Assembly (NCBI RefSeq): GCF_963921235.1
Contig: NC_086097.1
Span: 122,204,001 to 122,268,000, forward strand
Length of the DNA stretch: 64,000 bases
Direction of reading: 5' to 3'
From: Mobula hypostoma
Taxonomy: Eukaryota
Below are positions 219 through 64,000 of the stretch, piece after piece. Every line of letters begins with the position of its first letter. Position 1 is the stretch's first letter. Under the pieces are notes generated by a model that saw nothing but the letters and a program-made list of their open reading frames with translations, was not told the origin of the DNA and searched no databases. The translations under genes were made by a program, and so were the position numbers.

Positions 219-1500
219 AGCAAAGTTCAAAGTTCAAAGTATATTTATTATCAAGGTAGATATATGTCACCATATACAACCCTGAGATTCATTTTCTTGC
301 AGATATACTCAATAAATCCAGTAACCATAATAGAATTAATGGAAGGCCATACCTACAGGGCGGACAACCACTGTTCAAAAGACAGCAAATTGTACAAATC
401 CAAAAAGAGAAAAAAAGAAATAACAATAATAGCAATAATAATAATAATAAAATAATTATAATAATAATAATTATAAAATAAGTAAGCAATGAATTTCAAC
501 AACATGAGATAACGAGTCCTTGAAAGTGACTCCATAGATTTTTGGATAAGTTCAGTGATGGGGCAAATGAAGTCAAGTGAAGTTATCCCCTGTGGTTCAA
601 GAACCAGATGTTTGATAGGTAATAACTGTTCCTGAACCTGATGGTGTGAGTCCTGAGGCTCCTGTGCCTTCTCCTTAATGGCAGCAGCGAGAAGGGAGCA
701 TGATCTGGGTGGTGGGGGACCCTGATGATGGATTCTGGTTTCCTGAGACAATACAGATGTGCTCAATGATAAGGAGGGCTTTACCCATGACAGGCTTGGC
801 CATATCCACTACTTTTTGCAGGATTTTCCGTTCAAGGGCTTTGGTGTTTCCATACCAGGCTGTGATGCAGCCAGTTAATATACTCTCCACCACTGTCAAA
901 GTTTTAGCTGGCATGCAGAATCTTCACAAACTTCTAAGAAAGTAAAAATCCTGCCATGCTTTCTTCGTAATTGCACTTGCATACATACTGGGCCCAGGAC
1001 AGGTTTCTGAAATCATGATGCCGAGGAGTTTAAAGTTGCTGACCCTCTCACCTCTGATTCCCCCCGATGAGGACTGGCTCATGGACCTCTGGTTTGCTCC
1101 TTCTGAAATCAGTAGTCAGCTCCTTGGTCTTGCTGACATTGAGTAACTGTTTGTTGTTGTGGCACCACTGAGCCAGGTTTTCAATCTCCCTCCTACATGC
1201 TGATTTGTCATCCTCTTTGATTCAGCCAATGACAGCGCTGTTGTCAGCAAACTTAAATATAGTATTGGATCTGTGTTTAGCCACATGGTCATAAGTATAA
1301 AGCGAGTAGAGCAGGGGGCTGAGCACACAGCCATGTGGTGCATCTGTGCTCATGGAGATTGTGGAGGAGGTGTTGGTGCCAATCCAAACTGACTAGGGTC
1401 TGCAAGTGAGGAAATGGAGGATCCAATTGCACTGGGCAGATTTAGGCCAAGGCCTTGAAGTTTATTGAATGCTGAGCTGTAGTCAATAAAGATCACCCTG
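219..1500 (-). mobile_element. Rex1/Babar-like LINE, degenerate 3' portion (RT C-terminus and 3' UTR with (TAA)n tract and (CTTTGAA)n tail)
   Basis: The minus strand gives 'VVESILTGCITAWYGN', typical of the Rex1-type ORF2 C-terminus, plus a KFADN remnant (aagtttgctgacaac) near 1240-1255. The tail reads aaagttcaaagttcaaag on + at 219-240. Boundaries are approximate. Confidence 0.8.
416..482. repeat. (AAT)n microsatellite within the LINE 3' UTR
   Basis: Imperfect aataataat run seen directly. Confidence 0.9.
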
Positions 1501-21387: not shown

Positions 21388-23172
21388 GTGGAGCCACCCA
21401 CAGCTCCAATCTGCTAATTAAATTTGCTGATGATACTACACTGATTGGCCTAATCTCAAATAATAATGAGGCAGCCCACAAAGAAGAAGTCATCACCCTG
21501 ACACAGTGGTGTCAAGAAAACAAACTCTCTCTCAATGTCACAAAAACAAAGGAGCTGGTTGTAGACTACATGAGGAATGGAGACAGGCTAACTCCTATTT
21601 GTGTCAATGGATCTGGGGTTGAGAAAGGTTAACAGCTTTAAGTTCCTCGGCATAAACATCACCGAAGATCTCACGTGGTCTGTACCTACCGGCAGTGTGG
21701 TGAAAAAGGTACAACAGCACCTCTTTCACCTCAGACGGTTGAAAAAGATTGGTATGGGCCCCCAAATCCTAAGAAATTTCTCCAGGGGCAGAATGGAGAG
21801 CGTTCTGACTGGTGCCTCACTGCCTGGTATGGGAACTGCACTTCTCTCAATCGCAGGACTCTGCAAAGAGTGGTCCGGACAGCTCAGCGCACCCGTAGAT
21901 GTGAACTTCCCACTATTCAGGATATTTACAAAGATCGGTGTGTAAAAAGGGCCCGAAGGAACTTTGGGGACTCAAGTCACCCCAACCACAAACTGTTCCA
22001 GCTGCTACCATCCGGGAAAAGATAACGCAGCATAAAGGGCAGAACCAACAGACTCTGAGACAGCTTCTTCCACCAGGCTGTCAGACTTTCTCTTCACCAT
22101 TTACACCTCAGACTTCAACTACTGCACAGAGTCGTGTCATCTTCAGAAGCTTTCTGATGACTCTGCCATAGTTGGATGCATCAGCAAGGGAGATGAGGCT
22201 GAGTACAGGGCAACGGGTGGAAACTTTGTCACATTGTGTGAGCAGCTTAATGTGAAAAAGACTAAGGAGCTGGTGGTAGACCTGAGGAGAGTTAAGGCAT
22301 CAGTGACCCCTGTTTCCATCCAGGGGGTCAGTGTGGACATGTTGGAGGATTACAAATACCTGGGGATACGAATTGACAATAAACTGGACTGGTCAAAGAA
22401 CACTGAGGCTGTCTGCAAGAAGGGTCGGAGCTGTCTCTATTTTCTGAGGAGACTGAGGTTCTTTAACATCTGCTGGACGATGCTGAGGATGTTCTATGAG
22501 TCCGTGGTGGCCAGTGCGATCATGTTTGCTGTTGTGTGCTGGGGCAGCAACTGAGGGTAGCAGACCCCAACAGAATCAACAAACTCATTCGTAAGGCCAG
22601 TGATGTTGTGGGGATGGAACTGGACTTTCTCACGGTGGTGTCTGAAAAGAGGATGCTGTCCAAGTTATATGCCATCTTGGACAATGCCTCCAATCCACTA
22701 CATAATGTACTGGTTGGGCACAGGAGTACATTCAGCCAGAGACTCATTCCACCGAGATGCAACACAGAGCGTCATAGGAAGTCATTCCTGCCTGTGGCCA
22801 TCAAACTTTACAACTCCTCCCTTGGAGGGTCAGACACCCTGAGCCAATAGGCTGGTCCTGGACTTATTTCATAATTTACTGGCATAATTTACATATTACT
22901 ATTTAACTATTTATGGTTTTATTACTATTTAATTATTTATGGTGCAACTGTAACGAAAACCATTTTCCCCTGGGATCAATAAAGTATGACTATGACTATG
23001 ATTAATTCACGCTGATTCAATTGTATTTCTATATTGACTGTCCTGTCGTACATACCATTTATTAAAAATTACTATAAATTGCACATTGCACATTTAGATG
23101 GAGACCTAACGTAAAGATTTTTACTCCTCATGTATATGAAGGACGTAAGGAATAAAGTCAATTCAATTCAAT
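21388..23172 (+). mobile_element. Rex1-like LINE (KFADD region to 3' UTR, (TTCAA)n tail) interrupted by a second Rex1-family element
   Basis: 'LLIKFADDTTLIGLI', 'LNVTKTKELVVD', 'AWYGNC'. The 3' UTR resumes at about 23001 and ends aataaagtcaattcaattcaa. Confidence 0.85.
22087..23000 (+). mobile_element. Rex1/Babar-like LINE subfamily B, 5'-truncated, (CTATGA)n tail
   Basis: 'QKLSDDSAIVGCI', 'YKYLGIRIDNKLDW', 'RKSFLPVAIKLYN'. Highly similar to 39295-39875. Confidence 0.88.
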
Positions 23173-23282: not shown

Positions 23283-23987
23283 TGTAACTATCCGTTACAT
23301 TGACTCATGTATGTCTAGGGGGAATCCTGCCCCGCAACTGCTTCAACACTCCCCTCAGGGTCAGTTGCAACCCGAATCAATCCCAAACATCAATCATCAG
23401 CCAGCACACCCAGTAAATTTTAACAAATACACTTTATAGATATTACTAATTCTATGACATTAATATGAATTTGATACAGAGAGGAAAGTAATGAAAAAAA
23501 AGGCGCCAACACTTATCAAAGTCCAAGTTCTTCGCGCGCTACCTTTGGAGCTTAATCGATTCCTGACAACCACCCGAATCCTGTCGACTCACGGCTCGGG
23601 ACCACCCGAAGTGATCGACCGAAGCCTTTCCGCACGTCCACGGTCCTCCCCGTCTCTCCTCCGACTCCCTGTCAAAAACCCCCGCACGTCCACCGTCCTC
23701 CTCGTCTCTCCTCCGACTCCCCGTCAAAACCCCATCCACCATCCTCCTCGTCTCTCCTCCGACTCCTCGTCAAAACTCAGTCCACAGTCATATCATACAG
23801 CATGGTATCCGAAAACAAAATGATACATAACCACCCATTGGCTAATAGAATGCTGCTATCTCAATTTAAAGTAAAACAAACTGCTAGCACAAACTCTCTT
23901 CAGCGTTTAACACAACAAAGCCGCATTCCCCAGATTAACAGAACAAAGTCGCCATTTTAACTCTAACAAAAAGAAAGACCCTGTACA
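23283..23987 (-). mobile_element. Solo LTR (705 bp) with perfect 4-bp TSD CACA
   Basis: TGTAAC...TGTACA termini, with CACA at 23279-23282 and 23988-23991. CpG-rich. Its reverse complement shares the AGCTCCAA motif and terminal CCCTAGAC with the LTRs at 6299 and 57054. Confidence 0.88.
23630..23780. repeat. Three tandem units of about 45-51 bp inside the LTR
   Basis: The core tcctc(c/t)cgtctctcctccgactcc..gtcaaaa is repeated three times. Confidence 0.9.
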
Positions 23988-27697: not shown

Positions 27698-29174
27698 TAA
27701 ATATAAAGCACATCGCATTTCTTTTCAGCAAACTTCAGCTTTTCATATAGAAACAAAGGTCACACATCCAATGTCCATTGTTGCCAGATAGAAGAGTGCA
27801 GGCGCTCAAGAGGTTGTCAGTCATGAGGGATTTTATTTCAGAGACTTCTTCTCTTGATCCGGTCAAAAAGACCTTTGAACATTACCATTTTTCATGGACT
27901 CTACTCCAAGCTGTAGCAAATAAAACTGTCAGACAGCAATAGGTTCTGTTAACTAAAACTCCTTGTTGTAGTAAAGGTTCATTAACTGGATATTCATGAA
28001 CTGGGAGAGACTGTGTAGAGACTGCTGTTGTCCGCACTGAGAACACAGACCTCCTGTATCTTTGCACATGTTTTGATTGTTCAACCCATTGTCATAATGA
28101 GCTTCTGAGTTGTAGGACCATTCTAGGATACATTTGCTGATCTCTGCCATATCCCACTGTCTACTTACATCTCACTGATGCATTAGGCAAGTCTCCTAAA
28201 CACCACATTCAAGAGAAAGAGGCTAAATAAACACAAGAGGTTCCACAGATGCTAGAAGTCCAGAGCAACACACGATGCTGGAGAAACCAGCAGGCCAGAC
28301 AGCATCTATGGAAAGGAATAAACAGTCGATGTTTCAGGCCGAGTCCCTTCATCAGATAACTTCAATCACCTCAACATTGGTTGTTTGACAGTTTTCGTAT
28401 ATGGGTTGTTTTTCATTGACTCTTTTGTACTTCTTTGTTTTGCTGTAAACGCCTGCAAGAAAATATATCTCAAGGTAGTATATAATGATTTTTACATACT
28501 TTGTTAATAATTCTACTTTTAACTTTGACCTACTTGTCCTTCTGCCTGAAGGAACAGGCAGAGTAGGTGCAGAGATTCTGCTGAAAGGTTTTCCCAAGTG
28601 CAGGCATTTGTGGCTTGCCTTCATTTTCTGACAGATTTCCTGACAAGGGGAACCTTTCTGTGGCACTGAACTATATCTATTTTCCTCAACGTGCCTCCTG
28701 TGGGCACTGCCATTTACCAGTCTGTCAGATCCCTCTGATTCCTGTGAGAATGCCCCACCACCTCCTCATCCTGTCCACAATGCCCCCACCTACACACAAC
28801 CTCACTCCATTGAATGTTTTGTTTATTCTGCAGCAACAGTCCCCAGTATCTTGAAACGTGTTTCTTGAAACTGAGATGGATCCAATTTAGTTGTCTTTTT
28901 AGGTTCGTAAGGATGCCCTTTGAGGGCAGATAGGGGAGTTTGGGTCAGGTTAGGGTTCAGCTACAGGGATGTGAGGGTATCAGAGATCAGGCTGGAGTCG
29001 AAGGCCCGCCTCATGTACACGGTACATCTGTGGTAGGATGTCGGATGTCAACCTGGCAGAAAACGGTCTAGGGTCTCCAGCTCCCAGGTTGCTAATGATG
29101 CTTTTCACTGTGTGTTTCTATGTACTCTACATGTAACAAATAAACTTGAATCACGTATTGTCGTCCCTTTAAGA

Positions 29175-30050: not shown

Positions 30051-32974
30051 ATCACATGTTTGTGATAATTGAAAAATGAGACTTTATTTGATGTAGAATT
30101 CACATCAACAGACTGTCGTTTTTATTTGCTTTGTACATTTCTACAGGGAGAAAGCCTTTCAGTTTGATATTCATTGTTGATATCGGCCAGTATTTTTAAA
30201 CAGCTATCATGATGGAACAATGAGGCAAATGGAAGATATGCCATCCCTGACTTTCCACGGAGTTCAGTCCCTGTGCTTTTTCTGTCTTGCATGAAGGCCC
30301 ATGTATCACAGAGTTCTCACAGTTGATGGAAAGGCTATTAGTGATCATTTAGAGCTGCCTATTTTTCATGAGCTATCGTTATTGCCAGAGTCCGTGAAAC
30401 TTGGAGCACCTCATAAAACTCATCAGTTTATATCATGGCACTTTATAATGCTTTTAGGAGAGGTTGTAATTTCACCTCCTGAGCCGGCAGCTTCAGGGAG
30501 AATCTGCACAATAAAGGCAGCCTGCGAAACAGGCAGAGGACAAGTAATCATTACAGACAAGGTCTCGGAGTGTGGGGTAAAGTACGATACTCATGGACCA
30601 TTGAACACATCTACAAGAAGCTGATGCCACAAGAATGCAGTATCCAACATCAAGGACACCCACCATCCACGGCATGCTCTCTTCTTGCTGCTGTCATCGC
30701 GAAGGAGGTACAGGAGCCTTGGGTCCCACACCAGCACGCTGAGGAACAGTTATTACCCTTCAACTATCAGGCTCTTGAACCAGCATTGATAACCTCACTC
30801 AACTCAACCCTAACTGATTCTCTAATCTAGAGACTTACTTTCAAGGACTCTGCCGCTCATGTTCTCAGTATTATTTATTTATTTATTGATTGATTTGTTT
30901 TTTTTAGTATTTGCACAGTTTGTCCTCTTTTGCATATTAATTGCTTGTCAGTTTTTGTTGGTGTGCTGTATTTCATTGATTCTGTTGGGTTTTTTTTTGC
31001 TACACAGTGAATGCCTGCAAGAAAGCGAATCTCAAGGTAATACATTTACTTTGAACTTTCAACTTAGATATTGAAAGCTTAGAGTACAACACAGAAGTGA
31101 TTCCTTCACACTCACAAAATGCTGGAGGAACTTGGCATGACAGCTAGCATCTACAGAAGGGAACGAATAGTTGATATTTTAGGCCGAGACTGGATGAAAG
31201 GTCTTGTCCCGAAATGTCAACTGTTCACTTTTCTCCATAGATGCTGCCTGATCTGTTGAGTTCCTCCCTCATTTTGTGGGATTTCTAGCATCTGCAGAAT
31301 CTTTTGTGTCGGAGATTCTTTCACGGATGCCAGAGTCATGAATACAACCTGCTGGTCCACGGTGACACAGCAAATTTTGGCCTCCAAGCACATAATGATA
31401 GTCTTAAGACTATCTAATGGTAGTCTCAGTCCTTCAGTGTGCCATCTGACTGACAGGAAAAACATTTGGAGAACCTACTGGCGTCTGGCTGGTTAAAGAT
31501 ACTTTACAGTTAGCAAAAATGAAGATTCTAGAGTATCCCATGATGAGGCAGATATGAAATAAAACAGATCAAATTACCCAGAAACTGTCTTCAATGTACA
31601 CAATATGCTCCTGTCTTTGGTGCTCTATTTGCAATGACAATATTATCCAAAAGGCATTTAATTTCATTGCATCTCTGCTGCTTCAAGACTCAGCTTTTCC
31701 AATTATCTCATGGGAGGCTTCCTAGTATCAAACTCCAAAAGCATTTGCAAAAAAAAATTACCAGAAAATATTTTGTATCCTGTCCTAATCAGCAATGATT
31801 TGTTTACCGACTTACAAGGGCTACTGATCCAATAACATATTTTTTAAAGTTCTCACCTTTGCCCTTCCGTCTCCATCTGCATTAGCTCTTTCAGCATTAC
31901 AGTTCTGCTGGATCCCTCTTTCTTCCCCTATTTTCAGTTTCTCCAACACTAGTAACAAACCCTCCAACTGTTCAAAGCCTAAACTTTGGAATTTTCTCCA
32001 GAAACCATTCTTTTTCAGCTTTAAGATTTACTTTAAAAATCTACCTCTTTAACCAAATGTCATTTACACATATTTTAGTGTGAATCTCAGTCAATGTGTA
32101 ATCAGCTGATTCTTGGTGATCTGACAAAACTTCTCTGCCGGATTCCCAGAGAAACATCTGGCTGATCTGCTGGGCTGTGGCGCTGGTATCAGAGTGCAGT
32201 GCTCCACTTTGATGGCCTTGTGATCGGAACATCACTGCATGCACACATTGTTTGCTGCCCAGCACTGGAGGGTCTAGTGGCAGTGCCAACTCCCTCTGGC
32301 TCTCAGCCAATATCCTCAGCAGCATATCGCTGTCTACTTCCACAGAGTCCTGGTGCACCCCTTGGTCCTTTGTAGTCTTACGCCCATCAGGGTGCAAGCT
32401 TGTCCTGGGTATCCTAAGCCAGCGTTTGTTTCTCAGAACAAAGAACTAAGTGGACCTTCCAGCAATAGGGCACAGGGTACGGAAGTAGTTTTACATAATG
32501 TGTATAACTTACCAAGGATCAAGGCCTGAGAGTTGAATTGGAAGTTTGGAAGTCAAAGCCCTTCACACAGAGCCCAAGTTTGGGTATCCCTGCAAGTCTA
32601 CCGGTGAAGCTAAAGAGTTCAAGTCTGCATCTGCTGGAGGCTGAAGATAGCCTACCTCAGGGCTGGGGTACTACTTGGGTGTATGTGGGTGTGGGTTGAG
32701 CTCGCTCAACCTATCTTCATAAGACATATTCTCTAACCTAGGAAACATCCTAGCAGTCTTCTCTGCGTTCTCTCTAAAGTTTCCACATCCACATCCTTCC
32801 TATCATGAGGCAACTAGAACTGAACACAATATCCCAAGTGTGATCTAACCAGGGTTTTATGGAGCTGCAACATTGCCTCGCAGCCCTTGAACTCACTGAG
32901 TGGAATCATTTAACGTAATGGAGTGTAGCTTTTGCTCATGCTTCTGACTCGCAGCTCCCTGCCCTTATTTTTAG

Positions 32975-39294: not shown

Positions 39295-39875
39295 AGAGCC
39301 GTCTCTATGTCCTGAGGAGACTGAGGTCCTTTAACATCTGCCAGATGATGCTGAGGATGTTCTACGAGTCTGTGGTGGCCAGTGCGATCATGTTTGCTGT
39401 TGTGTGCTGGGGCAGCTGGCTGAGGGTAGCAGACACCAACAGAATCAACAAACTCATTCGTAAGGCCAGTGATGTTGTTGGGATGGAACTGGACTCTGTC
39501 ACGGTGGTGTCAGAAAAGAGGATGCTGTCCAAGTTGCATGCCATCTTGGTCAATGTCTCCCATCCACTACATAATGTACTGGGTAGGCACAGGAGTACAT
39601 TCAGCCAGAGACTCATTCCACCGAGATGCAGCACAGAGAGTCATAGGAAGTCATTCCTGCCTGTGGCCATCAAACTTTACAACTCCTCCCTTGGAGGGTC
39701 AGACACCCTGAGCCAATAGGCAGGTCCTGGACTTATTTTATAATTTACTGGCATAATTTACATATTACTATTTAACTATTTACGGTTCTATTACTATTTA
39801 TTCTTTATGGTGCAACTGTAACGAAAACCAATTTCCCCCAGGATCAATAAAGTATGACTACTACTACTATGACTA
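39295..39875 (+). mobile_element. Rex1/Babar-like LINE subfamily B, 3' fragment
   Basis: ORF 39345-39719 is nearly identical to the translation of 22480-22850. Tail aataaagtatgactactactactatgact. Confidence 0.9.
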
Positions 39876-45506: not shown

Positions 45507-46065
45507 GGCCAAAAGCAATTTGCATCAGGCCCGGCACAGGCAGGCACTTCCCAGTCTCCATCCAGTTAAAAGGACTTACTTGCCATTCACTTCACACTCA
45601 TCAACTGCAACCTATTTAAACCCAGCTCTCATCCATAATCCTTGTTCTCTCACACAAAGCAGTCAGTCTCAACCAGTTCGCTGCTCCTAGTCTTCTGTAA
45701 CTCTGTTTTCTTGCATTGAGTACCATACTGTCTTGTTTAGAGGCCTTTTTAGGCTTGTTCTTTTGCAGTTCATTATTAGAGTGAACCCCCACCATTAAAT
45801 CACCTTAGCTTCTTTGCATTTGTGTCAAACAGCCTCTACAATTCCTGACACAAAAATATAGAGGAAATTTTTTTAGGACTCTCCACATCCAGTTAAGAAA
45901 CATATCAAACGTTTCACCCATGCCAAGACCAATAACAATATTAATTTCCCAAGAAATACTAGCAATTTGACTGAAAATGCTCTGGAATGCACGGCAGTGC
46001 CTTCACTCATGTACCAGCATATTATTGACTTCACAACTATAGCAATCAGGTCATCAGAAAGTCAC
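45507..46065 (+). repeat. Left copy of a 559-bp long-range inverted duplication
   Basis: Colinear reverse complement of 59486-60044 with scattered substitutions. Confidence 0.95.
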
Positions 46066-59485: not shown

Positions 59486-60044
59486 GTGACTTTCTGATGC
59501 CCTGATTGCTACAGTTGTAAAGTCAATAATATGCCGATACATGAGTGAAGGGACTGCCGTGCATTCCAGAGCATCTTCAATCAAATTGCTAGTATTTCTT
59601 GGGAAATTAATATCGTTATTGGTCTTGGCATGGGTGAAATGTTTGATATGTTTCTTAACTGGATGTGGAGAGTCCTAAAAAAATTTCCTCTATATTTTTG
59701 TGTCAGGAATTGTAGAGGCTGTTTGACACAAATGCAAAGAAGCTAAGGCGATTTAATGGTGAGGGATCACTCTAATAATGAACTGCAAAAGAATAAGCCT
59801 GAAAGAGCCTCTAAACAAGACAGTATGGTACTCAATGCAAGAAAACAGAGTTACAGAAGACTAGGAGAAGCTAACTGGTTGAGGCTGACTACCTTGTGTG
59901 AGAGAACAAGGATTATGGATGAGAGCTGGGTTTAAATAGGTTGCAGGTGATGAGTGTGAAATGAATGGCAAGTAAGTCCTTTTAACTGGGTGGAGACTGG
60001 GAAGTGCTTGCCTGTACCAGGCCTGATGCAAATTGCTTTTGGCC
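59486..60044 (-). repeat. Right copy of the 559-bp long-range inverted duplication
   Basis: Reverse complement of 45507-46065. Confidence 0.95.
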
Positions 60045-60876
60045 TAGATTCAGATATGTGCTTGAAATGGCTTAATTTACAAGGCGACAGATCAAGAGCT
60101 GAAAGTGGGGTAGCTCTTCTGCCAACACAGATAGGGTGGGTGGAATGAGTGAGGGAGCAACACCTCATATTCCTCCTACCTTCCAACCTGATGGCCTGAT
60201 TTTCCTTTCAGTACTTTTTTCTCTTTTTTTTTCTTTTCCCCTCCCCTTTCTCTCTTCATTCATTCCTCAATCTGGTCTTTTATCTCTTCTCCTCACCTGC
60301 CTATCACCGCCCCTCCTTCTTGCCTTTCTCCCAGGGTCCACTATCCTCAACTATCAGATTCCTTCTTCTCCAGCCCTTCACCTTTCCCAACAACCTGGTC
60401 TCACCAATCATTTTCTAGCTTGTCCTAATTCCTCTCCCCCACCATTTTATTCTGGCATCTTCCCCCTTCCTTTCTAGTCCAGATAAAGGGTCTCAGCCTA
60501 AAATTGTTCATTCATTCGACTGTTTATTCATTTTCACAGATTCTGCCTAACTTACTGAGTTCCTCTACCTTTTTGTGTGTGTGGCTTCACTCTGCACTGT
60601 AAGCAGTTAGTATTTTATTCTGACAAACAAATTAAAAGGTCAATTTATATATTTTTTCTAATTCAATCAAGTTGCACTTTAAGAGTGAATGTAATAATTC
60701 ATGATATAATATTTGATTAATATTCAGTATTTATACTTTTTCGATATCAACTGTGGTTCCTCCACTGGTGAATTAATAAAACATGTTAAACAAGTTAAAT
60801 TTCAGTGATCCTGTTTTAGATATCTATTGATGGTTGCCCAGTGGAACACAGAGTAAGACAAAGGAGTGACAAGACT

Positions 60877-62335
60877 TCAAAGTTCAAAGTGAATTTATAT
60901 ACGTGTTACCATATACTACTCTGAGATTGATTTTCTTGCAGATGGTCACAATAGAACAAAGAAATATAATATTATCAATGAAAAACTACACACAAAGACT
61001 GACAATATGCAAAAGAAGGCAAACTGTGCAAATACAAAGAAAACAAATCATTATAATAACAGACATAAAAGAGTTACACAAGTCAGATAAAATTTCTAAG
61101 AATATGCATTCATCAACAAAAACAGGATTCACCACTCCACACAAGCAGATATAATTCTGATAAGAAGTACACACCACTCAACTTAAATGAAAGCACAACT
61201 CAACAAAATAAAGAAGCTGGCACTACAGAAGAAATGGTTAACAAATGGAAGATCATGACCCTCCATGGAAGACAGCTCCACAATCTGAATAGACTAGATG
61301 GCAGCAAGAAGCATTAAATGCCTTGCTCAGAGTTAGATACCTGTTCCCACAAACAGAGGGGTTCTTTGTGGCAATACTGGATGAGGTAGTTAACACAAAA
61401 AAATCAATAATAATTATTAATACATAATAAATGACCAACACATTCAAGACTATAAGTGTAAACGTACCAAGAGAATCCAAAAACAATCCAACACATTACA
61501 GGATTCTGCAGCAGTTTAACTCAATCTGATTACTTGCACAGGCACAATCAAGTGGCAAACAACATTCACCAAAATCTTGTTTTAAAATACAAACTTATAA
61601 AAGAGACCATACCTTACTATAAATGCAAACTTGATCCAGTTTTAGAGTAAGGGACCTACAAATGATATCAGTTATTACAGATAGGACAATCCACAATAAC
61701 CGTCTGGATATAAAACAGGATAAGCAAGCAAGGACAACTTACTTAATAGATATAGCCATTCTAAACATGCATTACATACAGAAATCATAAGTGAAACACA
61801 ATAGAAATATGCTTAACTAAAAGTGGAAATTGAAAGACTATGGAATATGATCAGGTTATACATTGTCCCGATAGTTATAACTACAACTGATATCATCCCA
61901 AAATCACTGCACCATAGCATTAATTAATTGGGCCTACACAGTAATATTTATGTAAATCTCCACAAAGCCACAATACTAAAAACCACTAGAATAATCCAAA
62001 AGTTCCTAACAATTTGGCAAATAAGTGTGCTTGGCTATACATGTCCCTCAGGTTTTAACAGCTTGAGATGAGAAAAAATAATAGATGAGTAAATAAATAA
62101 TACTGAGAACATGAGTTGTAGAGTCCTTAAAAGTGACCAATAGGTTATATTCAGTGTTATGGTGCATGAAGTTCTCCACGCTGGTTCAGGAGCCTGATGG
62201 CTATAAGGTAATAACTGTTCCTGAACCTGGTGATGTAGGACCTAAGGCTCCTATACCTCCTGCCTGAAGGCAGCAGAGAGAAGAGAACATGGGCTGGATG
62301 GTGGGGTTCTTGATATGGATGCTGCTTTTTTGTCA
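60877..62335 (-). mobile_element. Rex1-like LINE 3' end split by an R4/Dong-like insertion
   Basis: 60877-61055 and 62084-62335 together are colinear with 219-740. 'LFSLLPSGRRYRSLRSYITRFRNSYY' at 62157-62345. Confidence 0.8.
61056..62083 (+). mobile_element. R4/Dong-like non-LTR retrotransposon (restriction-like endonuclease), 5'-truncated and degenerate
   Basis: Reads DKKYTPLNL, LFPQTEGFFVAILDEVVNTK, TIQHITGFCSSLTQSDYLHRHNQVANNIHQNL, TDRTIHNNRLDI...TYLIDIAI, and EIERLWN...IVPIVITTTDIIPKSL. These are the zinc knuckle, RHN and PD..D restriction-like endonuclease motifs. Confidence 0.85.
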
Positions 62336-64000
62336 ACAGTAACATGATAAGAAGAGTTCATGATTATAACAAAGTACATTTATTATCAAAGTATGAATAC
62401 TGTATACAACCTTGAGATTTGTCTCCTTACAGGCAGCCACAAAACAATGAAACCCAATAGAATCCATTAAAAAAGAAAACCATCAAATACCCAATGCGCC
62501 AAAAAACAAGTCACACAACCAATAAAAGTAACCAATAAACTCAGAACTGAAGTTCATGAAAGTGATTCTACAACCATAAAGTCAATCACAGCCAGTCCAG
62601 GAGCCCAGTCGTTAAAGGCCGCAGCCTCAGTTCAACGCAGAGACAAGTAAACCTCACAGAGCAGTGAGCTGAACACCGGCCTGTTCCTCTCCTCTGGCTC
62701 CAACACCCTAACTTTTAAAATCAGGCCTGGCACTTAAATCCGCCAAACATTGGGTCATTGCACAATCTTGGACCAGGGCCCTGCTGCTTTGATAGCACTC
62801 ACAGCCAAGACCCACCGCCTCAATTTGGCCCATTCCTGATCTTTCCAATTTAGCTCAGGACTTAAGTCAGTCAAACAGTGGCTTGTTCCTCGCTCTGTTA
62901 TATGCATCTAGTTATCATGTGCAACACAGGAATAGATTTGAAGTCCAAATCCAATTACCAAGCAAACCCACATTATTTTCTTCGCATTCCCACCAACTCC
63001 CTTCCACCATCCTCCCCCCACCCCATCATTCCATCTCTCCTCTATATACAGTACAGTGCAAATACCTTAGGCACATATGCATTGCATAGCTAGGATGCCT
63101 AAGACCCTTGCAGAGAGCACTGTAGTGCTGCTGCAGAAAAAAAAACAAATTTCATGACATAAATGAGTGCTGATAAACCTGATTCTGACATGGCTCTCTA
63201 TCGTGGACTGAGATTGGGAAGGAGGCAGGGAGAGGGGAATCATGATTGGTAAAATGGAAAGGGTGCCGAAGTACCAGAGAGATATTCTGTAATGATCATT
63301 AAAACAATTGTTTGGAATCAAATGACTTTGGCTGGTGTCTCAAGGCTGGGTGTGCCGGGATCTGCACCAATCCCCGCCGTGGCACTCCTTTCTGCCATCT
63401 CTTCCACACTCCTCATGCAGAGTTCCACCCTCACCATTCCCAACATCCTTTGCTCCCACCAACTCTCTGCTCCATGTTGACTCTAGCTGTATATATGTAC
63501 CTAAGACTTTTGCTTAGTCCCATATGTACTCACAATGCCCAATTAACCTATCAGCCCACATTTTTGCAACAAGGAAGGCAGAGCACTGAGAGCAACCATT
63601 CACAGTAACGCGCCAATCACGCAGAGACAGCACCAGGCCACTGGAGCTGCAAGTCAGTGGCTCAGCTGGCTATAACACTGTGGCACCCAGTCTGGCTAAT
63701 TACCTGCATTATCACAGCAAGCAATCGACATACAGCAATATCAGACATATCTACTAGTGACAATTTCTACGCGCTACTCTCCCGGTGTAGGGGAAAAGAA
63801 ATCCTGCCGACTATGCCAAATGTAGGAGCAAAATGAAAGATCACATGGATTCTGTGTTTGAAATAACAGGTGATTTACTAAGAGCTGGTAGACACCAGGA
63901 AAGCAGCCAAAGCTGATCCACCTGAGCATGAACACGCTAGAGCTTTTACATTCTCAGTTGACAAGATTACCCGTAAAACTACATTTTTTTAACACAATGG

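What the first reader, a model, noticed from the sequence alone, without database searches (positions are those of the whole stretch)
61056..62083. R4/Dong-like RLE retrotransposon inserted into the TAA-rich tract of another LINE's 3' UTR
Seen: an AT-rich ~1-kb element with zinc-knuckle, RHN and PD..D endonuclease motifs sits at the position where the intact paralogue of the host LINE (219-740) has its (AAT)n tract. The left junction is ...catt ataataac and the right junction is aaaaataata. Known: Dong elements of the R4 clade target TAA repeats. Inference: the abundant Rex1-like 3' UTR microsatellite supplies genome-wide landing sites for a site-specific retrotransposon, an element parasitising another element. 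The strongly A-rich coding composition, unlike the CR1/Rex1 copies here, raises the possibility of horizontal transfer.
Basis: partly seen in the sequence, partly recalled or inferred. Interest (0 to 1): 0.72.

Follow-up and report, generated by a model that had tools for sequence, protein, structure and literature searches.

The report
Dead Dong-type LINE inside Rex1 copy
A decayed, shortened copy of a known kind of jumping gene that homes in on TAA repeats landed in the A/T-rich tail region of another jumping gene; the nesting is ordinary, and the only open surprise is that its closest named relatives are from insects.

Summary
Bases 61056-62083 are the 3' kilobase of a LINE with a restriction-like endonuclease (RLE), now dead. 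It splits one Rex1-like copy inside its 3' UTR, in antisense. The family is abundant: copies about 18% apart cover it in four runs, and pieces about 2% apart occur in two other organisms, so the insertion is old. Relatives in metagenome contigs have TAA runs at the 5' junction in 25 of 36 loci, against 25 of 994 control windows, so TAA targeting is a lineage trait, as published for Dong and Rex6. Only 2 of 7 host paralogues carry three or more TAA units, this site was a short decayed tract, and no genome was available to test flanks. A-richness is shared by relatives (median 39% A) and is no sign of transfer. Transfer stays open on other grounds: the nearest named proteins are insect elements (up to 52% identity, against 32% to an anole protein), but the AU test did not reject an insert+anole clade (p 0.13). 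Verdict: new member of a known kind, modest interest.

The parts
60873..61055 (-). Distal 3' UTR of the Rex1-like host copy, ending in a (CTTTGAA)n tail at 60876-60890
   Evidence: BLASTN to 8 other places in the window; alignment; 7-nt tandem repeat
61050..61060 (+). 5' junction: short ATTATAATAA run; the element's frame starts at about 61056, so ATAA fits both target and element (microhomology, inferred)
61056..62024 (+). Remnant of the element's ORF: end of RT thumb, linker, zinc knuckle, RLE; several frameshifts and stops; probable stop at 62022-62024
   Evidence: tblastn, phmmer 242 hits at E<=0.001, profile search; profile of relatives hits R2 structures 9nl3, 9dou, 9nl2 at E 3.5e-11 to 1.3e-8
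61457..61509 (+). Broken CCHC zinc knuckle (first Cys 61457, second Cys replaced by Tyr after a frameshift, His 61492, last Cys 61507)
61540..61548 (+). RHN motif at the start of the RLE
61701..61810 (+). RLE core: RLD..D (PD..D in relatives) and damaged KxxKY
62025..62072 (+). Short 3' UTR of the element (about 50 nt; relatives about 75-125 nt before their TAA run)
62073..62083 (+). 3' junction AAAAAATAATA; ATAATA (62078-62083) repeats 61053-61058, a possible 6-bp target duplication that cannot be told from simple repeat
62084..62345 (-). Rest of the host copy: decayed (TAAA)-like tract, proximal 3' UTR and last codons of the Rex1-like ORF (ORF piece 62157-62357); 5'-truncated
219..1500 (-). 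Uninterrupted host paralogue with the long (AAT)n tract at 419-481; broken RT pieces upstream
   Evidence: weak Pfam hits RVT_1 E 0.0039 and ALKBH8_N E 0.011, both below the curated cut-off

Best explanation
The insert is a dead, 5'-truncated copy of an abundant, old R4/Dong-type LINE family. An active master copy made the protein (RT plus RLE), which bound its own RNA, nicked DNA at a short TAA-rich run and primed reverse transcription there. Synthesis stopped after about 1 kb and joined to the upstream TAA run through a few shared bases. The run happened to lie in the A/T-rich tract of a Rex1-like 3' UTR, one of the commonest repeats of this genome. Rex1 UTRs are thus one source of TAA targets among others; the element reads the microsatellite, not the Rex1 sequence. 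Shown: identity of the protein remnant, the nesting, high copy number, decay, and TAA junctions in relatives. Inferred: target-primed reverse transcription (from R2 biology), the microhomology join, TAA specificity of this particular family, and indifference to the Rex1 context.
For: Protein identity. Nesting in one host copy: (table 5). Abundance: summed contig depth in run X1 is 1,364-108,562 across insert bins against 14-31 on the unique flank (table 2; the tool warns this is no copy number). Decay: 35 of the 40 best-supported differences shown lie in the insert, and most covering contigs carry the other letter (table 3; 555 rows not shown). TAA junctions of relatives: 25 of 36 deduplicated truncated loci at the 5' side, 13 of 30 at the 3' side, 25 of 994 control windows. 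Orientation fits: TAA is on the element's sense strand in relatives (25 sense, 1 antisense at the 5' side) and here. Literature: Dong and Rex6 insert into TAA repeats (passages of PMC3812793; PMC1635306).
Against: Only one insertion site of this family was seen, and no flank of any other copy (one search showed none; two searches found nothing). The TAA run at this site is short (no perfect three units at either junction). The relatives tested for TAA are only about 26-70% identical to the query over their best segment, so they are not this family. No named Dong, R4 or Rex6 reference was in the trees.
Confidence: 0.72

Rival explanations
1. The family preferentially uses the Rex1-like 3' UTR tract as its landing site (an element parasitising an element), either because that tract is the main source of TAA runs in the genome or because flanking Rex1 sequence helps recognition.
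For: The one insertion seen is in that tract. 2 of 4 perfect TAA runs and 7 of 24 ATAATAA clusters in the window lie in host 3' copies, which cover 5.5% of it. The host is far more abundant than the insert (table 2). Rays have the highest Rex1 coverage of the vertebrates surveyed (passage of PMC13343379).
Against: One insertion only. 5 of 7 host paralogues lack three TAA units. 5 of the 7 in-host ATAATAA clusters are a different site next to the host tail (positions 245, 15339, 18436, 47757, 62380). Relatives land in TAA runs with unrelated flanks. 0 of the 7 other host copies aligned carry an insert.
Confidence: 0.2
2. The family has lost TAA specificity and inserts loosely into A/T-rich DNA; the TAA letters at the junctions are its own tail plus chance.
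For: The junction runs are short and imperfect and the site resembles decayed (TAAA)n. The family is very abundant and dispersed. Some relatives sit in CAA, GAT or CGA runs (L021, L052, L053, L055, L061). An R4-clade RLE element without a fixed target is described in Entamoeba (passage of PMC1635306; its placement in R4 is recalled).
Against: TAA letters are at both junctions and on the expected strand. The 5' side cannot be an element tail. Old insertions lose microsatellite purity.
Confidence: 0.07
3. There is no nesting: two separate host fragments happen to flank the element, or the assembly is wrong.
For: No contig listed spans either junction.
Against: The two flanks are consecutive parts of one host UTR and join with nothing obviously missing. 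Hundreds of contigs join the same two positions (table 5). Pieces identical to the window at 60700-60937 and 61245-61508 exist in run X1.
Confidence: 0.01

Closest known systems
Dong of Bombyx mori, DongAg, DongBg (R4 clade; Xiong and Eickbush 1993, Kojima and Fujiwara 2004, seen only as cited in PMC3812793 and PMC3774820)
   Same: RLE-type LINE with CCHC knuckle, RH and KxxKY core; TAA runs at the junctions; nearest named proteins are from moths, butterflies, psyllids, beetles, flies and a louse
   Different: Host is a vertebrate; the copy is dead and 5'-truncated, so RT, N-terminus and 5' ribozyme are absent; the Bombyx Dong sequence itself was not compared
Rex6 / DongFR of teleosts and the R4 family of Anolis carolinensis
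   Same: Vertebrate members of the R4 clade; Rex6 is reported in TAA repeats (passage of PMC1635306); Rex6/Dong found in most fish genomes and the anole (passage of PMC4350176)
   Different: The insert is only 32% identical to the one anole protein retrieved (XP_062819964, taken as the anole R4 from recall) against up to 52% to insect proteins; no teleost Rex6 was retrieved, so that comparison is missing
R2 (R2Tg and related solved proteins 9nl3, 9dou, 9nl2)
   Same: Homologous linker, knuckle and RLE; source of the mechanism inferred here
   Different: R2 targets 28S rDNA; similarity is distant (E about 1e-11 for a profile of relatives)
Tx1L of Xenopus, which inserts into the Tx1D transposon (passage of PMC1635306)
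   Different: Tx1L has an APE endonuclease and a unique target sequence; here one insertion in a simple repeat is all that is shown
Rex1/Babar LINEs (the host element)
   Same: Conserved 3' UTR followed by a short-unit tail (passage of PMC6274825); very abundant in rays (PMC13343379); weak RVT_1 and ALKBH8_N hits
   Different: Assignment rests on weak Pfam hits, the tail and recalled C-terminal motifs; no tree was built

Membership tests
RLE-type LINEs (R2 group) | CCHC zinc knuckle followed by an RLE with RH, PD..D and KxxKY (PMC5678591 passages) | tested here: met
   All positions are recognisable by alignment, though three are mutated in this dead copy; intact in relatives P0279, P0276, P0278; the profile hits R2 structures
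RLE-type LINEs (R2 group) | Single ORF with RT upstream of the RLE | tested here: inconclusive
   RT is lost from this copy; the closest full-length relatives (1.1-1.4 kaa) carry RVT_1
R4 clade | RT phylogeny groups with R4, Dong and Rex6 | not testable with these tools
   No RT in the copy and no named Dong, R4 or Rex6 reference retrieved; C-terminal trees place it among insect elements with an anole protein more distant
Dong lineage | Insertion into (TAA)n | tested here: inconclusive
   Short TAA-like runs at both junctions of the single copy; met in relatives, 25 of 36 5' junctions against 25 of 994 controls; other copies of this family not seen
Dong lineage | Short 3' UTR ending at a TAA run | tested here: met
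   About 50 nt then AAAAAATAATA here; about 75-125 nt then TAA in most relatives shown
Dong lineage | HDV-like ribozyme at the 5' end (PMC3774820 passages) | not testable with these tools
   The 5' end is missing from this copy
Transposon-targeting LINEs (Tx1L type) | Repeated insertion at one position of another element | not testable with these tools
   One insertion; no genome held; 0 of 7 other host copies in the window carry it
Horizontally transferred element | Nested within a distant host group, with lower divergence than vertical descent allows | tested here: inconclusive
   Nested with psyllid and unnamed proteins at 98/93 and 95, no starred set; AU p 0.134 for insert+anole; no Ks possible
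   Insert 43% A; 57 related loci median 39% (32-42%); lizard R4 38.2% A, fish R4 31.6% A
Rex1/Babar (host) | CR1-group RT with a conserved 3' UTR and short-unit tail | tested here: inconclusive
   Tail and UTR seen; Pfam hits below cut-off; no phylogeny

The most novel reading that the evidence does not exclude
An arthropod-type Dong lineage, separate from the Rex6/anole R4 line, crossed horizontally into an ancestor of these rays long ago, expanded to thousands of copies, and used TAA runs that arise in the 3' UTR of the resident Rex1 family as a main, self-renewing pool of harmless targets.
Probability: 0.15. Interest if true: 0.6.

Novelty: new member of a known kind. Interest (0 to 1): 0.3.

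Why it matters
As it stands this is one more nested LINE of a clade already known to target TAA repeats. It would matter in two cases. If the family proves to come from arthropods (about 45% on present evidence), it is a LINE transfer between phyla into cartilaginous fishes, which I did not find reported in the searches run. If most copies sit in Rex1 UTR tracts (about 20%), it shows one LINE manufacturing the targets of another. Both can be tested in an afternoon with the assembly.

Tried and rejected
No whole genome is held, so flanks of other copies could not be collected. Laying contigs on the site gave abundance and empty host copies, but the listed loose ends were nearly all from the host, and none showed another flank of the insert. 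No second copy lies in the window by BLASTN, nhmmer or profile search. A word-index protein search with the knuckle piece found 6 candidates and no hit. Pfam found no credible family in the insert's pieces. A PDB search with the last piece alone found nothing. Related-locus scans of viral and prokaryote genome contigs found no relative, and a 23-base family motif was absent from both. ESM Atlas gave only unnamed clusters from Arthropoda, Chordata, Cnidaria and Mollusca, which do not settle origin. Of 30 proteins looked up for names, 6 had one: five insects and one anole; none of the insert's five nearest rows is named. The mixture-model careful tree did not finish, and its quick replacement had no starred set holding the insert. 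Composition as evidence of transfer was rejected. A true target-site duplication could not be separated from simple repeat; an equally long chance match AGAAAA also exists. Earlier scan notes held nothing on this element. No structure or complex prediction was run, because the copy is dead and the fold is not in question.

Full report
What is there. Bases 61056-62083 have no second copy in the window. They encode, in three alternating frames with stops, the C-terminal 300 or so residues of a non-LTR retrotransposon protein. A 62-residue open piece found 242 representatives at E<=0.001. The best, P0006, aligns over 61084-62011 at E 5.5e-50. Full-length relatives of 1.1-1.4 thousand residues carry RVT_1 upstream. 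A profile of six relatives matches three solved R2 proteins over knuckle and endonuclease (E 3.5e-11 to 1.3e-8). The features that define the RLE (CCHC knuckle, RH, PD..D, KxxKY; passages of PMC5678591) can be placed, but this copy has lost the second Cys, the Pro of PD and the first Lys of KxxKY. It is a dead, 5'-truncated copy.

Nesting. The flanks are consecutive parts of one repeat on the minus strand. Left and right flanks align colinearly with seven uninterrupted copies in the window (two further partial copies, at 28531 and 62370, were left out of that alignment and printed). Contigs of four runs jump from 60996-61043 to 62088-62095, which are host copies without the insert (table 5; 2309 rows not shown). 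The host ends in (CTTTGAA)n, and its ORF piece stops at 62157, so the insert lies in the 3' UTR, antisense to the host. The Rex1 label rests on the conserved UTR plus short-unit tail (passage of PMC6274825), weak RVT_1 and ALKBH8_N hits below cut-off, recalled C-terminal motifs, and the report that rays have the highest Rex1 coverage (passage of PMC13343379). That the genome is a ray's comes from earlier, unchecked scan notes.

Junctions. The element's frame begins at about 61056 (I-T-D-I-K-E-L-H, matching relatives), so the 5' junction reads ATTATA|ATAACAGAC, and ATAA fits both sides. The 3' end is a UTR of about 50 nt, then AAAAAATAATA. ATAATA occurs at both ends (61053 and 62078), but a chance match of equal length also exists, so no duplication can be claimed. 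The site was not a long (AAT)n. Neither junction has three perfect units, and the right side resembles decayed (TAAA)n like the paralogue at 31045. Among seven paralogues only those at 219 and 14396 have three or more TAA units.

Abundance and age. In run X1 the summed contig depth is 14-31 on the unique flank, 1,364-108,562 over insert bins and up to 924,899 over host bins; runs X5, X9 and X13 show the same profile (table 2). The tool warns that this is no copy number, but a family of many hundreds or thousands is the simple reading. The six non-identical X1 pieces listed differ from this copy at 207 of 1159 letters (17.9%; only pieces at least 80% alike were laid). Pieces in organisms B and D differ at 11 of 504 and 5 of 217 letters (about 2%), and one in organism C at 21 of 217 with 11 gaps. 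I read the 2% pieces as this same copy, so the insertion predates the split of A, B and D and is several times older than it. No listed contig spans a junction, so shared position is inferred.

Target. No genome was held, so I tested relatives. A scan of metagenome contigs gave 67 loci (hosts not determined), 66 with a forward match to a full-length relative. Among truncated copies with enough flank (48, reduced to 36 after removing duplicates), 25 have three or more sense TAA units within 150 nt before the first homology, and 1 has them antisense. At the 3' side 13 of 30 have them (40 before removing duplicates). Control windows from the same loci: 25 of 994. TAA at a 5' junction cannot be an element tail, so this lineage targets TAA, as published for Dong and Rex6 (passages of PMC3812793; PMC3774820; PMC1635306). 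These loci are distant relatives, not this family.

Does the Rex1 UTR supply the targets? For: the single insertion is there; 2 of the window's 4 perfect TAA runs and 7 of 24 ATAATAA clusters lie in host 3' copies that cover 5.5% of the window. Against: the numbers are tiny, five of those seven clusters are a different site beside the host tail, most host copies lack a TAA run, and relatives land in TAA runs with unrelated flanks. The fair reading is that this UTR is one source of targets; a dependence is not shown.

Horizontal transfer. The composition argument fails. The insert has 43% A against 29% and 34% for the window's Rex1-like and CR1-like ORFs, but 57 related loci have a median of 39% (range 32-42%), and a lizard R4 has 38.2% (fish R4 31.6%; PMC7140322 section 5). 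Phylogeny keeps the question open. In the two searches with P0006 the named eukaryote hits among the 240 listed were all insects. The decayed insert is 53-56% identical to three unnamed proteins, 38-52% to named insect proteins and 32% to an anole protein. Named insects of different orders share 41-56% with each other in that table. Allowing for about 9% neutral decay, the family would be roughly 65-70% identical to P0279 (my estimate). Trees put it in a set whose only named members are psyllids: 23 rows at support 95 (FastTree, 270 rows) and 10 rows at 98/93 (IQ-TREE LG+G4, 27 rows). Against this: the mixture-model quick tree on 40 rows had no starred set holding it; the AU test did not reject insert+anole (p 0.134); the nearest rows have no host name; the query was chosen from insect-like hits; and no teleost, shark or skate element was retrieved. 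Retention of an old paralogous line cannot be excluded. I put transfer at about 45%.

Mechanism. Shown: RLE-LINE remnant, nesting, decay, abundance, TAA junctions in relatives. Inferred from R2 biology: nicking at the TAA run, target-primed reverse transcription, early termination, and a join by microhomology. Inferred from relatives: TAA specificity of this family.

Prior art. Ten searches listed no paper on an R4/Dong family in rays or on its transfer. The word Dong does not occur in the main text of two large transfer screens (10.1101/2024.12.18.629015; PMC7070016), of a mobulid genome preprint (10.64898/2026.10.27.761883) or of a review (PMC5381603); of these I saw term counts and passages only. 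Their supplements were not read, and repeat-class tables there may list R4/Dong. I also saw passages only of PMC4350176, PMC5389967 and PMC4640811. The original Dong paper is not held, and Kojima and Fujiwara 2004 was seen only as a citation. Repbase and Dfam could not be searched, so the family may already have a name.

Verdict. A real but ordinary nested insertion of a TAA-seeking R4/Dong-type LINE. It is a new member of a known kind, interest 0.3. The possible arthropod origin is the one lead worth a genome-wide check.

Noticed in passing
window 45507-46065 and 59486-60044: A 559-nt inverted pair at 95% identity, much younger than most repeats here: a recent local inverted duplication or a young family.
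   Followed up: no
window 22551-22850 and 39420-39719: A 300-nt direct pair at 95% identity.
   Followed up: no
window 23630-23789: Three copies of a 52-bp GC-rich tandem unit; may be the 52-bp satellite that earlier notes on this genome report as a Tx1 target.
   Followed up: no
P0373 and P0249: Proteins of this eukaryotic LINE type labelled Streptomyces narbonensis and Ignavibacteriaceae bacterium, on contigs of 3992 and 1044 nt: probably contamination of those assemblies.
   Followed up: no
L021, L052, L053, L055, L061: Some relatives abut CAA, CGA or GAT runs instead of TAA, which suggests drift of the target repeat or later turnover of the microsatellite.
   Followed up: partly
window 245, 15339, 18436, 47757, 62380: The Rex1-like host carries a second, conserved TTATTAT site just inside its tail, another potential TAA-type target.
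   Followed up: partly
window 62345-62490: Another 3' end of the host family begins right where the interrupted copy is truncated.
   Followed up: no
   Followed up: no
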